64,000 nucleotides of DNA from Escherichia phage vb_EcoM-VR5: sequence record NC_028881.1. One strand, 5' to 3'. Below, in pieces: positions 14,651 to 51,675 of this stretch; position 1 is the stretch's first letter; the number at the start of each line of letters is the position of its first letter. Under the pieces are notes generated by a model. It searched no databases. It was not told where the DNA came from and saw only the letters and a program-made list of their open reading frames with translations. The position numbers were made by a program, and so were the translations under genes.

Positions 14651-14658
14651 TATTTATA
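14651..14658 (-). promoter_or_regulatory. late promoter TATAAATA upstream of soc
   Basis: exact TATAAATA on minus strand about 30 nt before soc ATG. Confidence 0.5.
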
Positions 14659-14661
14659 TCA

Positions 14662-15183
14662 TTAATAACCTCGGTCCTGACGAGCAAAGTTCTCGGCATT
14701 TTTCAGGTAATACAGTTTAAAGATTTCTTCAGCAGTAAGTCCAAGACCCTGGAACATGTTCAGAACGAAATGGAGAATATCAATCATTTCAAATTTAATT
14801 TCGAGCTGGTCTTCAGGAGAGAGTTCGTCGATACGACGATTACGGAATTCAGCATGCTGAGCTTTCCAAGGCTTCCAGCAACTTGAAGCAGCTTTCTCAC
14901 CATTGCTCATACCACCAAGAGAAGTCAGAAGTTCACGGAATTCATCATCAATATAATCTTTCTGATTACGCAGCCAATCAACAACTTCACCTGCAGTAGC
15001 CAAATCATCAGGGTGACGGTTATATTCAGGTTTATCTTTAGCCAAACGGACCTGTAAAGATTTCTGCATATCAAGCATAACCTGCAGTGGGTCTTTATCT
15101 TCGTGAATCAAGGCATTAAAATAAGCTTCCTCAGCTTTATCAACGCCAGCAATCAAACCACTACACTCATTAAAATGTGCCAT
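14662..15183 (-). CDS. 56: dCTP pyrophosphatase (gp56, MazG-like)
   Basis: 173-aa ORF; size and position as T4 gene 56; RBS AGGAAA. Confidence 0.8.
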   Translation of the reverse strand: MAHFNECSGLIAGVDKAEEAYFNALIHEDKDPLQVMLDMQKSLQVRLAKDKPEYNRHPDDLATAGEVVDWLRNQKDYIDDEFRELLTSLGGMSNGEKAASSCWKPWKAQHAEFRNRRIDELSPEDQLEIKFEMIDILHFVLNMFQGLGLTAEEIFKLYYLKNAENFARQDRGY

Positions 15184-15187
15184 TATA

Positions 15188-15844
15188 TTATTTCCTATTA
15201 AAGTTTTCTATCATTCGTCGATAACAAATATCAGGATATCCATTATCGACAGCTATTTTATTAAATTTGGTGCGTTTAGGTTTATTATTATAAACCCATA
15301 ATTCATAAAGCGCATCATAACTATCCCATATTTCTCCTCGCCTAGGATTTGGTAAACCGTATCGAGGTGAATTTTTACCGCTAAATCTTCCTTTTCGAGC
15401 TTTACTCATATTAGCCTTGGCTTCATCGGATATAATTTTATCTTTATGAGCTAGACGCATTTTGGCTTTAGTTTCTTCTGGGGTCTTTTTGCCTTTAATC
15501 CATGACGGCTTGCCATATCTAGGATTATTTTCACCTGTAACTAATAGTGAATTATTTTCCCTTAATGATGCTATAGTTCTGCTAGTTAATTTAACTCCTT
15601 TATTATATCTCATTAAATTAACGGCATGATGCAGACCTTTTACTTCAGGATACATTTTTGTTAAAAGCCTATGGGCTATAAAGTGCTCTCTTGGTAATAA
15701 AGCCACCAAATTATTTTTATCATCGGAACCATTCATACATTTGGGTACAATATGGTGTTCTTCTGTATAATATGGTAAGGACCGCTTGGTACCTCTTAAT
15801 TTTCCATTAGATATTAATTCATTGTATATTTTTTCATAGTTCAT
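15188..15844 (-). CDS. HNH homing endonuclease (freestanding, Mob-like) with NUMOD-type C-terminal DNA-binding repeats
   Basis: 218-aa ORF; HNH motif EEHHIVPKCMNG...NLVALLPREHFIAH; AT-rich; no SD upstream. Confidence 0.8.
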   Translation of the reverse strand: MNYEKIYNELISNGKLRGTKRSLPYYTEEHHIVPKCMNGSDDKNNLVALLPREHFIAHRLLTKMYPEVKGLHHAVNLMRYNKGVKLTSRTIASLRENNSLLVTGENNPRYGKPSWIKGKKTPEETKAKMRLAHKDKIISDEAKANMSKARKGRFSGKNSPRYGLPNPRRGEIWDSYDALYELWVYNNKPKRTKFNKIAVDNGYPDICYRRMIENFNRK

Positions 15845-15904
15845 GGGATAATTATAAACTGTTTAGATTAAAGCGAATAAATATTAATTTAACAGGAGGA
15901 TAAC

Positions 15905-16105
15905 ATGGGCAGTATTTTTTATCAAATCTGGAAATTGGCCGAAAAGAAAGACAAGAAAATGATGTTAGGTTTTCTTGCGCTAGACGTATTCCTTTGGAAT
16001 CTTTTAGTAGTCCCTGTAGCCGCTAGCCAAGGTGTAGTTTTACCAGCGGTTACAATGGAGCACGTGTTAAGCATAATTGGATTCTTTAGCGGAATTCCTG
16101 CCTAA
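15905..16105 (+). CDS. small hydrophobic membrane protein (66 aa), only plus-strand gene with expression signals
   Basis: ORF with strong SD AGGAGG 5 nt before ATG; late-promoter-like GAATAAATA upstream; convergent with gene 61. Confidence 0.5.
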   Translation: MGSIFYQIWKLAEKKDKKMMLGFLALDVFLWNLLVVPVAASQGVVLPAVTMEHVLSIIGFFSGIPA

Positions 16106-17130
16106 ATCTTGGAATATTTTGAAAGTCGCATTTTTGCCATTAAACCTTGTGCGATATTCTCTTTCATATAAGAAAGGACATCGTTTATATTGGCTTTATC
16201 TTTCATAACCATATCATTTATATCTTTAGAAGGCCATGGAGCCTTGTCCCAGAATAGAACCCTTTCACCGGCATCAACTAGACGTTGCATACGCTTAATT
16301 GTGTCAGGATGACGGGGTTCATTGTCCATTACCCATGCTCTTGTTTCTTTACATGGAACTATTGATAAGTCTAACGACCCACCAGTAATTGCTATTGCAT
16401 TAGGTACAAATAATGAATCTATAGGACCTTCCATTACCCACACCAACTGGCGTTCATCTATCGTATCCATTCCATATATTTTTGTAGCTTGGTCGTGAGC
16501 TTTAATTGTAATATATTTTTGCGGGGCATCTTTACGTAAAGCTCGACCCTGAAAGCTTTCAATTTGTTTATCCTTATTAAAAATAGGAATAACCAAACGA
16601 GGCTCAGGTATTTCTTTAGAATAGGTTCCTGGATTCACTGAGTTAACCAGCGCCGGCCACTCTTTCGTAAACCATAGTCTATTCCATTTGTTTTCGGGGA
16701 TGCATCGCAGAGTTACATATTTGATAATAGGATGGTCTTTAGGCATTCTATCTAATCGTTCACAGAAATTAAGCTTTTCGATGACAGGCATCTTAGCTTT
16801 AATTTTTTCAGATATCTCCACCTTAGGTGTAGCTTGTCTCCCGAACGATTGCTCTTTATGTTTCTCAAGAATATATTCTCGATATAAATCTGGCTCATAT
16901 TCGTATAGATACTTCTTAATTCCTGCTGAATAGTCACAATTAAAACAATGCAACATAATAGAACCATCGTTAGCCGGGTAAGCCCAAAATCGAGCTTTGT
17001 TCTCATCTTTTTGTGAGTCACCACATACACGACAACGACAGTTTAATTTAAAATCACTACCGGTTACTTGTCTGAATTTAGGTTGGTAATTCAAGGCACG
17101 TACAGCAAATTCTTTATCGACATATGACAT
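16102..17130 (-). CDS. 61: DNA primase (gp61)
   Basis: 342-aa ORF; zinc-binding CxxC...CxxC and TOPRIM region; length as T4 gp61. Confidence 0.9.
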   Translation of the reverse strand: MSYVDKEFAVRALNYQPKFRQVTGSDFKLNCRCRVCGDSQKDENKARFWAYPANDGSIMLHCFNCDYSAGIKKYLYEYEPDLYREYILEKHKEQSFGRQATPKVEISEKIKAKMPVIEKLNFCERLDRMPKDHPIIKYVTLRCIPENKWNRLWFTKEWPALVNSVNPGTYSKEIPEPRLVIPIFNKDKQIESFQGRALRKDAPQKYITIKAHDQATKIYGMDTIDERQLVWVMEGPIDSLFVPNAIAITGGSLDLSIVPCKETRAWVMDNEPRHPDTIKRMQRLVDAGERVLFWDKAPWPSKDINDMVMKDKANINDVLSYMKENIAQGLMAKMRLSKYSKI

Positions 17131-51417: not shown

Positions 51418-51675
51418 TCATCTCATGCTCCTATGCCAACAGTTACGTGGCTCACGTTTAAAAATTTCATCATGCATCGCTTGACAACCAACACAATATA
51501 TCACACCCTTTATAGCTTGGCGTCGTGCTTCAGGAATTTTTTCATCGCAGTCAAAACAATATTCAGCGGATTCACGTTCAACAGCTACTTGCTTACGAGC
51601 GTGTACTATAGCGGCCTGGACGACCGCTTCCATTTCGAGCTGTTCGGCTCCGTCCTTAGCAAATCCAACAGCCAT
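51418..51675 (-). CDS. TraR/DksA-type C4 zinc-finger protein
   Basis: CFDC-x17-CVGC. Confidence 0.6.
   Translation of the reverse strand: MAVGFAKDGAEQLEMEAVVQAAIVHARKQVAVERESAEYCFDCDEKIPEARRQAIKGVIYCVGCQAMHDEIFKREPRNCWHRSMR

What the first reader, a model, noticed from the sequence alone, without database searches (positions are those of the whole stretch)
15845..16105. Lone plus-strand membrane-peptide gene with strong SD next to the HNH endonuclease
Among roughly 120 minus-strand genes, one 66-aa hydrophobic ORF on the plus strand has a textbook SD (AGGAGG, 5-nt spacing) and a late-promoter-like GAATAAATA upstream. It converges on the 3' end of gene 61. It may be cargo of the endonuclease insertion, or a small membrane effector.
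Basis: seen in the sequence. Interest (0 to 1): 0.55.

Follow-up and report, generated by a model that had tools for sequence, protein, structure and literature searches.

The report
Conserved late holin-like membrane peptide (Dam.1)
The lone plus-strand ORF is a real, widely conserved T-even phage late gene (the counterpart of T4 dam.1) for a 66-residue membrane peptide distantly related to phage holins, and it is not cargo of the neighbouring homing endonuclease.

Summary
ORF 15905-16105 (+), its AGGAGG Shine-Dalgarno with a 5-nt spacer, and GAATAAATA at 15875-15883 are all present, and it is the only convincing plus-strand gene in the window.

The window is a Dhakavirus, a T4-like phage. 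The ORF belongs to phrog_2024 and lies next to the 3' end of the primase gene (gene 61) in about 830 T-even-type genomes. T4 itself has it: unannotated in RefSeq NC_000866, called dam.1 in T4T.

It is not endonuclease cargo. Relatives without the HNH gene (QL01 and others) keep the ORF and its 58-nt upstream region.

It is under purifying selection. A T4 late-promoter core (ATAAATA) plus a strong SD is conserved upstream in 12 of 13 loci compared. That motif is about 3-fold depleted in the window.

The product is predicted to be an N-in membrane peptide with invariant W-N...P...G..LP...E residues. Profile comparisons link it firmly to small TM proteins in lysozyme-containing prophage modules (98.9%). 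They link it more weakly (93%) to a subgroup of PF11351 holins that sits in the T7 holin position.

The phage already has holin T. The most likely role, by inference only, is an accessory holin-like or lysis-timing protein. The function has not been tested.

The parts
15876..15883 (+). T4-type (gp55) late-promoter-like box AATAAATA, with A instead of T at -13
   Evidence: Sequence read. The ATAAATA core is conserved 13-21 nt upstream of the ATG in 12 of 13 loci from different genera; IME08, Marfa, Q7622 and Kosakonia 305 have the perfect TATAAATA, while Moon has only ATTAAATA. The motif is about 3-fold depleted in the window. The A(-13) variant occurs in 9 of the 50 listed T4 late promoters (PMC2988020). 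Transcription itself was not tested.
15847..15904 (+). Upstream region (promoter, leader, SD) shared with relatives that lack the HNH gene
   Evidence: Alignment of the window with QL01 (no HNH) and IME08. Identity with QL01 resumes at GATAATTATAAAC, directly next to the HNH start codon.
15894..15899 (+). Shine-Dalgarno AGGAGG, 5 nt before the ATG
   Evidence: GGAGG is conserved in all orthologues examined.
15905..16105 (+). CDS of the 66-aa membrane peptide (orthologue family of T4 dam.1 / phrog_2024), stop codon included
   Evidence: phrog_2024 E 4.9e-28. tblastn found 137 records with the window protein and 693 with T4 Dam.1. Codon-position differences against Marfa are 10/4/39; dN/dS is 0.06-0.15 where it could be measured. 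The sense frame is open in 13 of 13 loci.
16102..16105 (.). 4-nt overlap of the converging stop codons (CTAA) of the peptide gene and gene 61
   Evidence: The same 4-nt overlap is seen in QL01, Marfa, VR26, Moon, Kosakonia 305 and T4. The overlap is 21-24 nt in PM2 and Q7622.
16102..17130 (-). Gene 61 DNA primase (context). It is probably read antisense by the late plus-strand transcript.
   Evidence: phrog_47 E 7.8e-97. No terminator-like site was found on the + strand between 16105 and 17330.
15188..15844 (-). mobE-like HNH/NUMOD3 homing endonuclease (context; an independent insertion, not linked to the peptide gene)
   Evidence: It is absent from QL01, WG01 and KIT01, which keep the peptide gene.

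Best explanation
The ORF is the Dhakavirus member of a small gene family found across enterobacterial T-even-type phages. It is called dam.1 in phage T4T and RB69ORF029w in RB69, belongs to phrog_2024, and is unannotated in the T4 RefSeq record.

Shown at the sequence level:
- It is a genuine protein-coding gene under purifying selection.
- It always converges on the 3' end of the primase gene.
- It is independent of the HNH insertion.
- It is preceded by a conserved T4 late-promoter core and a strong SD.
- It encodes a peptide of about 65 aa with three parts. A cationic N-terminal amphipathic helix has a net charge of +2 to +7, so it is presumably cytoplasmic. One clear TM helix carries an invariant Trp and Pro and a near-invariant Asn (one member has Asp) and Ala. 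A conserved G-x2-L-P-x-V-x2-E turn leads into a short amphipathic C-terminal helix.

Inferred: the gene is transcribed late by gp55-RNA polymerase from the strand opposite to the surrounding early genes. The peptide inserts N-in into the inner membrane and oligomerises through its polar TM residues. It then acts in the lysis programme as an accessory holin-like protein: a small hole-former or depolariser, or a partner or antiholin that tunes the canonical T holin.

The holin link rests on remote homology. The family is clearly related to small TM proteins in prophage modules that contain a T4-type lysozyme. It shares its TM-turn module with a subgroup of PF11351 (GTA/TeaA-type) holins found next to an endolysin, in the T7 gene-17.5 holin position.

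The confidence of 0.45 applies to the inferred lysis-related function. That this is a real, conserved, late-promoter-driven membrane-peptide gene independent of the HNH insertion is above 0.9.
For: Real gene:
- phrog_2024 at E 4.9e-28.
- 137 plus 693 phage records hold it.
- Codon-position differences are 10/4/39 against Marfa. Kosakonia 305 against PEi20 gives 2/3/21 with dN/dS 0.057.
- The sense frame is open in 13 of 13 loci, while the antisense frames are broken in Moon and Q7622.

Late expression signal:
- ATAAATA plus GGAGG is conserved upstream in 12 of 13 loci across genera and in T4.
- The motif is depleted in the window, 9 observed against 26.5 expected.
- The A(-13) variant is the commonest natural T4 late-promoter variant (PMC2988020).

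Membrane peptide:
- Hydropathy is up to 2.06.
- The AF2 model has helices 2-11, 14-41 and 51-62, with pLDDT 68.7.
- The charge asymmetry is conserved.

Holin relationship:
- An exhaustive profile search of 1.8e9 proteins returned only 24 hits, among them a PF11351 protein, P0105. P0105 scores PF11351 at E 2.8e-18, phrog_3427 'holin' at 7e-25, and also phrog_2024 at 6e-5.
- hhalign gives 98.9% (E 2e-17) between the T4-like family and the prophage family, 93.2% between the T4-like family and the PF11351 subgroup, and 94.7% between the prophage family and that subgroup.
- Controls are low: reversed alignment 3.3%, column shuffles at most 0.6%.
- Prophage relatives lie within 4 kb of a PF00959 lysozyme or annotated endolysin in 8 of 9 informative contexts. 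In two of those contexts (four loci: L019/L020 and L028/L029) they form a contiguous same-strand block.
- The PF11351-subgroup member P0108 overlaps a glucosaminidase gene and precedes T7-type terminase genes.
- PF11351 includes an experimentally tested holin, ICP1 TeaA (PMC7182436).
- Three of 27 T4-like members weakly hit phrog_11161 'holin', best E 8e-4.
Against: - No experiment or transcript data were available.
- The window protein does not hit PF11351 or any other Pfam or NCBIfam model.
- Profile comparison with a mainstream PF11351 alignment finds nothing.
- The similarity to the PF11351 subgroup covers only 32-37 columns of TM plus turn. The conserved PF11351 N-terminal (DKWTSRARP) and C-terminal (GYLGYxGxRTWEK) motifs are absent.
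- In T-even phages the gene is not next to any lysis gene, and these phages already have holin T.
- In the prophage modules the tightest neighbours are two unknown proteins (about 180 aa and about 105 aa), not the lysozyme, so 'holin' is not proven there either.
- The C-terminal helix (about 12-16 residues) is short for a second TM span.
- ESCO10, which is 99.6% identical, carries a 1-nt deletion in the ORF. One paralogue has decayed in several Gapriverviruses, which suggests at least partial dispensability.
Confidence: 0.45

Rival explanations
1. It is a real late membrane peptide, but its job is not lysis. Possible roles include late-phase superinfection exclusion, protection of the energised membrane, or a membrane anchor or assembly aid for late morphogenesis. 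The resemblance to holins would then reflect a shared TM-hairpin ancestry or a co-opted module.
For: The gene is never next to lysis genes in T-even phages. Those phages have a complete known lysis set including holin T. The prophage relatives are most tightly linked to two unknown proteins downstream of the tail-tip gene, one of which weakly matches a 'minor tail protein' PHROG. Family membership in PF11351 fails.
Against: Profile links to proteins in lysozyme- or endolysin-adjacent positions recur in three unrelated phage types. Late timing, small size, N-in topology and polar residues inside the TM are the usual holin or antiholin attributes. No similarity was found to known exclusion proteins or any other family.
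Confidence: 0.3
2. The selected function is mainly at the RNA level. A late promoter fires into the 3' end of gene 61, producing antisense RNA that shuts down or processes primase and upstream early mRNAs late in infection. The peptide is secondary.
For: The convergent arrangement, with a 4-nt (or 21-24-nt) overlap with the gene 61 stop, is kept in all genera even though the upstream neighbours differ. No terminator-like site lies on the + strand across gene 61. T4 is known to transcribe both strands at several sites at different times (PMC2988020).
Against: There is strong amino-acid-level constraint, with saturated synonymous change but conserved residues: W and P invariant, and N, A, L and P near-invariant. 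The strong SD and ATG are conserved. Homologues occur in unrelated prophages and podophages without a convergent primase gene. An antisense role could exist alongside the coding role.
Confidence: 0.1
3. The ORF is cargo of, or was created by, the HNH homing-endonuclease insertion.
For: It lies immediately next to the HNH gene in this window, 60 nt from the HNH start.
Against: HNH-less Dhakaviruses keep the ORF and its upstream 58 nt. The family is present in hundreds of T-even genomes with dam, other ORFs or nothing at that side.
Confidence: 0.01
4. It is a chance ORF in an intergenic region and is not expressed.
For: It is short, has no Pfam domain, is unannotated in several records (T4 RefSeq, JS98, IME08, PEi20), and has a frameshift in ESCO10.
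Against: Conservation across genera with purifying selection, a conserved start, SD and promoter, and remote homologues elsewhere.
Confidence: 0.01

Closest known systems
T4 dam.1 (T4T HM137666 T4Tp032) / RB69ORF029w / RB32ORF030w / phrog_2024: hypothetical proteins of T-even phages
   Same: Same family (phrog_2024 E 4.9e-28). Same length (65-66 aa). Same position and orientation, converging on the gene 61 stop with a 4-nt overlap. Same late-promoter-like box plus AGGAGG upstream. Same residues conserved across the 27-member alignment: W and P invariant, N, A, L and P near-invariant.
   Different: The window protein is the 'type A' paralogue (MGSIFYQIWKL...), about 27% identical to the T4/Gaprivervirus 'type B' form (MLKLSSLIQAIKG.../MVQKLMALVNAIKG...). 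VR26 carries both in tandem. The upstream neighbour here is an HNH endonuclease rather than dam. No function is recorded for any member.
PF11351 GTA_holin_3TM (RcGTA holin; Vibrio phage ICP1 TeaA holin, PMC7182436)
   Same: A subgroup of PF11351 (P0105-P0108, P0123) shares the TM helix plus turn (xFNYIILPLxxxxGLxLPxxExPE) with the T4-like family. hhalign gives 93.2%, E 3e-7, with low controls. That subgroup sits next to an endolysin in the T7 holin position. Both are small phage membrane proteins.
   Different: The window protein does not hit the Pfam model. It lacks the N-terminal coiled region with the DKWTSRARP motif and the C-terminal GYLGYxGxRTWEK motif. It is about half the size. Mainstream PF11351 profiles do not match. 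It is encoded far from lysis genes, in a phage with a different canonical holin.
Small TM proteins (50-99 aa) of uncultured tail-tip-J prophages (P0084, P0092-P0104; also an unannotated 57-aa ORF in record PQ671644)
   Same: Clear homology: hhalign 98.9%, E 2.4e-17 over 47 columns. Same W/Y-N...P...G..LP..P.[DE] core and the same C-terminal end.
   Different: These sit in a recurring module with a PF00959 lysozyme, an N-terminal-TM coiled-coil protein and two unknown proteins at the end of a siphovirus-like late region. The longer ones have an extra N-terminal region that weakly matches PF11351 and phrog_3427. None is characterised.
Class II holins and pinholins (e.g. phage 21 S68) and antiholins; comparison from general knowledge only
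   Same: Size of about 65-70 aa, two hydrophobic helices, a charged cytoplasmic end, and late expression.
   Different: No sequence similarity was detected or tested. The second helix here is short and amphipathic. Hole formation has not been tested.

Membership tests
phrog_2024 / T4 Dam.1 family | Significant full-length match to the family profile | tested here: met
   E 4.9e-28, residues 1-64 against profile positions 1-64 of 65. All 27 aligned members hit it.
phrog_2024 / T4 Dam.1 family | Conserved genomic position: plus strand, converging on and overlapping the 3' end of gene 61 | tested here: met
T4-type late gene | TATAAATA-type box at about -10 with no -35 element, a short distance upstream of the gene | tested here: met
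   AATAAATA at 15876-15883, 21 nt before the ATG. The core is conserved in 12 of 13 loci. The A(-13) variant is present in 9 of 50 T4 late promoters (PMC2988020).
T4-type late gene | gp55/gp33/gp45-dependent transcription late in infection | not testable with these tools
   No expression data were available.
PF11351 GTA_holin_3TM | Match to the Pfam model above the gathering score (24.8 bits) | tested here: not met
   No Pfam hit for the window protein even at E<=10. Only distant relatives of 97-99 aa give sub-threshold hits of 14-17 bits.
PF11351 GTA_holin_3TM | Conserved N-terminal SxDKWTSRARP motif and C-terminal GYLGYxGxRTWEK motif | tested here: not met
   Both are invariant in the 28-member alignment A4 and absent from the 66-aa protein.
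PF11351 GTA_holin_3TM | Profile-profile similarity to the family | tested here: inconclusive
   Nothing against the mainstream alignment. Against the short-loop subgroup, 93-95% over 32-37 columns, with low controls.
Holin (functional class) | Small late-expressed protein with at least one TM domain | tested here: met
   Prediction only: hydropathy, AF2 helices, late-promoter box.
Holin (functional class) | Genetic linkage to an endolysin or other lysis genes | tested here: not met
   In T-even phages the neighbours are gene 61, gene 56, dam or homing endonucleases. Linkage is seen only for distant homologues.
Holin (functional class) | Forms lethal membrane lesions, is triggered by energy poisons, and is required for endolysin release | not testable with these tools
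   This needs an experiment.
Homing-endonuclease cargo | Presence and absence co-vary with the endonuclease gene | tested here: not met
   The ORF is present in HNH-less QL01, WG01, KIT01 and in T4.

The most novel reading that the evidence does not exclude
T-even phages, T4 included, carry a previously unrecognised and near-universal component of the lysis programme. It would be a miniaturised holin-derived late membrane peptide (Dam.1 family) that works alongside holin T, for example as a depolarising trigger, a co-holin or an intramembrane antiholin. Its late transcript would at the same time run antisense through the primase gene.
Probability: 0.3. Interest if true: 0.7.

Novelty: new variant of a known kind. 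Interest (0 to 1): 0.45.

Why it matters
T4 lysis and lysis inhibition (T, RI, RIII, E, spanins) is a textbook system usually regarded as complete. This work shows a conserved late gene for a holin-related membrane peptide in about 830 T-even-type genomes. It is missing from the T4 reference annotation and appears in none of the literature searched. That gives a directly testable candidate for an extra player in lysis timing, or in late membrane physiology. It also illustrates how a holin TM module can be cut down to about 65 residues and moved away from lysis cassettes. If the peptide turns out to have nothing to do with lysis, the finding is still a useful annotation correction for T4 RefSeq, JS98, IME08 and PEi20. 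It also removes a false link to the homing endonuclease.

Tried and rejected
- Pfam, NCBIfam and PHROG scans of the protein and of 20-27 family members gave only phrog_2024. Otherwise there was only noise, plus three weak hits to phrog_11161 'holin'.
- Profile comparison with a 28-member mainstream PF11351 alignment gave nothing. Membership in PF11351 is therefore rejected and only a shared module with a subgroup is claimed.
- The codon-position pattern alone cannot separate the + ORF from the 50-aa antisense ORF at 15922-16074, because both share third positions. The antisense ORF was rejected because its frame is broken in Moon and Q7622 and it lacks conserved start signals.
- The AF2 model has only moderate confidence (pLDDT 68.7). 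The BFVD Foldseek search returned family members and weak hits (E >= 0.02), including one 63-aa T4-like protein labelled 'Holin'. This is not used as evidence.
- tblastn of two prophage-type relatives against isolated phages found nothing.
- The PHROG scan of the prophage-module neighbours gave no informative match. A targeted test for spanin features (lipobox, TM segments) was not run.
- Literature searches for dam.1, Dhakavirus holin, the JS98 late promoter, VR7 and T4 small-ORF ribosome profiling found nothing on this gene.
- The second + strand ATAAATA (21987) lies inside a minus-strand gene with no ORF downstream and is taken as chance.
- HNH cargo and spurious ORF were both rejected, as set out above.

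Full report
**1. What is in the sequence**

The region reads ...gcGAATAAATAttaatttaacAGGAGGataacATG....
- The ORF runs 15905-16105 on the + strand (66 aa, MGSIFYQIWKLAEKKDKKMMLGFLALDVFLWNLLVVPVAASQGVVLPAVTMEHVLSIIGFFSGIPA).
- AGGAGG lies at 15894-15899, 5 nt before the ATG.
- GAATAAATA lies at 15875-15883.
- The TAA stop overlaps, by 4 nt, the stop of a 342-aa minus-strand gene at 16102-17130.

The neighbours were identified by family scans.
- The 342-aa gene is the gp61 primase (phrog_47, E 8e-97).
- The 218-aa gene at 15188-15844 (-) is an HNH/NUMOD3 homing endonuclease (phrog_655, E 1e-55).
- The 173-aa gene at 14662-15183 (-) is the gp56 dCTPase.

The window is a Dhakavirus, a T4-like phage. 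It is 99.6% identical to vB_EcoM_ESCO10 and about 89% identical to IME08 over this stretch.

A greedy ORF tiling gives 110 minus-strand and 12 plus-strand ORFs. Only this plus-strand ORF has an ATG with a strong SD. The largest other plus ORF is an antisense shadow over three small minus genes.

**2. It is a real, conserved gene and not endonuclease cargo**

The protein matches phrog_2024 (unknown function) end to end, E 4.9e-28.

tblastn finds it in 137 phage records from Dhakavirus, Marfavirus and Klebsiella phages, Gaprivervirus, Kanagawavirus, Moonvirus, Mosugukvirus and others. It is nearly always annotated next to 'DNA primase'.

Annotated regions from nine genera or species show the same layout. 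The gene is on the plus strand and converges on gene 61, overlapping its stop by 4 nt, or by 21-24 nt in PM2 and Q7622.

The cargo question is settled by relatives without the HNH gene.
- QL01, WG01, KIT01 and others lack the HNH gene and still carry the ORF between genes 56 and 61.
- An alignment shows that the window and QL01 share the 58 nt upstream of the ATG. The HNH gene is inserted between that segment and the gene 56 start.

Selection acts on the protein.
- Against Marfa the differences by codon position are 10/4/39, with dN 0.13 and dS saturated.
- Kosakonia 305 against PEi20 gives 2/3/21, with dN/dS 0.057.
- Within Dhakavirus dN/dS is 0.12-0.15.

The 50-aa antisense ORF shares third codon positions with the + ORF, so this pattern alone does not tell them apart. 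The sense frame is open in 13 of 13 loci. The antisense frames carry stops everywhere and are badly broken in Moon and Q7622.

**3. T4 itself has the gene**

The T4 RefSeq record shows a 309-nt unannotated gap between dam and gene 61. That gap holds a 66-aa plus-strand ORF (MVQKLMALVNAIKGNKKRIAFTISTMVGILLWNFILSPVAIAHGVNIPVVTLDTFVDLAFALVGLI). It is preceded by gcGATAAATAttaatttaaAGGAGGatatatATG and overlaps the gene 61 stop by 4 nt.

This ORF is annotated dam.1, 'hypothetical protein', in T4T, and RB69ORF029w and RB32ORF030w in other records. tblastn finds it in 693 records, including T2, T6 and RB69.

The T4 form ('type B') is about 27% identical to the window's 'type A'. Gaprivervirus VR26 carries B and A in tandem. 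In PSD2001, RZ and CJ20 the A copy is a decayed remnant while B stays intact.

No paper in the searchable library mentions dam.1.

**4. Expression signals**

ATAAATA is the core of the T4 late promoter TATAAATA. It lies 13-21 nt upstream of the ATG in the window, IME08, QL01, Marfa, VR26 type B, PSD2001, CJ20, Q7622, PM2, PEi20, Kosakonia 305 and T4.
- IME08, Marfa, Q7622 and Kosakonia 305 have the perfect octamer.
- Only Moon deviates (ATTAAATA).
- The window's AATAAATA is the A(-13) variant, which accounts for 9 of the 50 catalogued T4 late promoters (PMC2988020).

The heptamer is about 3-fold depleted in the window: 9 occurrences against 26.5 +/- 4.3 in shuffles. Only two occurrences are on the + strand. 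The other + strand site (21987) has no ORF behind it.

No terminator-like structure lies on the + strand between the ORF's end and 17330. A late transcript would therefore probably run antisense through gene 61.

All of this is sequence-level inference. No transcript data could be consulted.

**5. The protein**

Hydropathy peaks at 2.06 over residues 19-41. AlphaFold2 with a 20-sequence alignment gives helices 2-11, 14-41 and 51-62 at moderate confidence (pLDDT 68.7).

Across the family the N-terminal segment has a net charge of +2 to +7, and the rest -2 to 0. That fits an N-in orientation.

In the 27-member T4-like alignment W31 and P37 are invariant, and N32, A39, L46 and P47 are conserved in at least 90% of members. 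G43, V49 and E52 are conserved in the smaller alignments.

A Trp-Asn pair and a Pro inside the TM helix, plus a conserved acidic residue at the start of an amphipathic C-terminal helix, are the kind of features expected of an oligomerising membrane peptide. This is inference.

**6. Remote relatives**

Word-indexed searches returned only T4-like members. An exhaustive profile search of 1.84e9 representatives returned just 24 hits. Two kinds go beyond the T4-like phages.

Small TM proteins of 50-99 aa from uncultured prophage-like contigs:
- hhalign between 27 T4-like members and 13 of these gives 98.9%, E 2.4e-17 over 47 columns.
- Their contexts are strikingly recurrent. Downstream of a tail-tip (J-like) gene and at the prophage end lies a module of the small TM protein, a basic protein of about 180-196 aa, a protein of about 103-117 aa, a PF00959 T4-type lysozyme and an N-terminal-TM coiled-coil protein. 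A SegE or endonuclease VII gene is often inserted.
- The same module is in record PQ671644, where the 57-aa member is unannotated.
- A lysozyme or endolysin lies within 4 kb in 8 of 9 informative contexts.
- In L019/L020 and L028/L029 the four genes form one contiguous same-strand block that starts with the small TM gene.

P0105, a 123-aa protein that is a bona fide PF11351 'GTA_holin_3TM':
- It scores E 2.8e-18 against PF11351 and 7e-25 against phrog_3427 'holin', and it also hits phrog_2024 at 6e-5.
- Its subgroup aligns with the T4-like family at 93.2% (E 3e-7) and with the prophage family at 94.7%.
- Controls are low: the reversed alignment gives 3.3%, and 20 column shuffles give at most 0.6%.
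- Subgroup member P0108 overlaps a glucosaminidase (endolysin-type) gene and directly precedes T7-type small and large terminase genes. That is the position of the T7 gene 17.5 holin; this positional comparison rests on general knowledge.
- PF11351 contains an experimentally tested holin, ICP1 TeaA (PMC7182436).

The longer prophage proteins (97-99 aa) give sub-threshold hits to PF11351 (E 0.009-0.07) and to phrog_3427 (1e-3 to 2e-4) over their N-terminal regions as well.

**7. Limits of the holin link**

- The window protein itself hits no Pfam or NCBIfam model.
- Mainstream PF11351 profiles do not match either small family.
- The invariant PF11351 end motifs are absent.
- The shared part is only the TM helix plus turn.

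I therefore do not file the ORF under PF11351. I describe it as a miniaturised relative that shares a holin TM module.

In T-even phages it is unlinked to lysis genes, and IME08 has the canonical holin t in its usual place after gene 38.

**8. Most likely mechanism and alternatives**

The best-supported reading, about 0.45 for the functional part, is as follows. A late, gp55-dependent transcript from the only plus-strand promoter in this early region yields an N-in inner-membrane peptide of holin ancestry. The peptide takes part in the lysis programme alongside T, as a small hole-former or depolariser or as a modulator of T.

Alternatives:
- A late membrane peptide with a non-lysis role (0.3).
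- A mainly antisense-RNA function against gene 61 (0.1). This could coexist with the coding role, but it does not explain the amino-acid conservation or the homologues in other genomic settings.
- HNH cargo or a spurious ORF, each about 0.01. Both are effectively refuted.

**9. Novelty and interest**

As a gene, this is already catalogued as 'hypothetical' (dam.1, phrog_2024), so the ORF as such is not new. Three things do appear to be new relative to the annotations and the literature that could be searched.
- The gene is conserved across about 830 T-even-type records that match by tblastn.
- It has a conserved late promoter.
- It is related to holin-type proteins of two other phage lineages.

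It is a modest but real lead in a very well-studied system, and it can be tested with simple T4 genetics. Interest is scored at 0.45.

Noticed in passing
T4 RefSeq NC_000866.4 17738-17938 (+); locus L030 3239-3439: The T4 reference record leaves a 309-nt gap between dam and gene 61. That gap contains the intact 66-aa dam.1 ORF with a late-promoter-like box and AGGAGG. The ORF is also unannotated in JS98, IME08, PEi20 and VR7.
   Followed up: yes
window 15905-16105 compared with OM386655.1 (L003 about 2600-2640): ESCO10, 99.6% identical in DNA, has a 1-nt deletion in the gaaaagaaagac stretch. The deletion frameshifts the first 18 codons, leaving an ORF only from Met19. This could be a sequencing error or a natural truncation.
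   Followed up: partly
L005 (VR26) 1295-1701; L012, L013, L011: Gapriverviruses carry two tandem paralogues, type B then type A. In PSD2001, RZ and CJ20 the type A copy is reduced to a C-terminal remnant while type B stays intact. In RZ an HNH gene sits between the remnant and gene 61.
   Followed up: partly
window 14662-17130 and the equivalent regions in L005, L009, L010, L013, L030: The gene 56 to gene 61 interval is a hotspot for free-standing homing endonucleases. Examples are mobE-like HNH here and in IME08, segF beside gene 56 in T4 and VR26, an endonuclease between gene 56 and a small ORF in Kosakonia 305, mobE upstream of gene 61 in PEi20, and HNH in RZ.
   Followed up: partly
whole window: The late-promoter core ATAAATA is about 3-fold under-represented on both strands (9 observed, 26.5 +/- 4.3 expected). 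Four perfect TATAAATA boxes on the minus strand (first base at 14658, 17351, 52956, 58259) include one just upstream of soc and one upstream of gene 61.1.
   Followed up: partly
window 51418-51675 (-): An 85-aa ORF with a C-x2-C...C-x2-C motif (CFDCDEKIPEARRQAIKGVIYCVGCQ) resembles TraR/DksA-type zinc-finger proteins. This resemblance was recalled from memory and not tested.
   Followed up: no
PQ671644.1 (Escherichia phage DCP80), L032: The record is classified as Gaprivervirus (140,978 bp). It contains a siphovirus-like tail-tip, endonuclease VII and endolysin module otherwise seen only in uncultured prophage contigs, so it may be a chimeric assembly or an unusual recombinant.
   Followed up: no
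L014, L015, L017, L022, L023, L025: In the prophage modules a SegE-type GIY-YIG homing endonuclease gene is repeatedly inserted directly between the lysozyme gene and the neighbouring module genes. This echoes the endonuclease neighbourhood of the T-even homologue.
   Followed up: no
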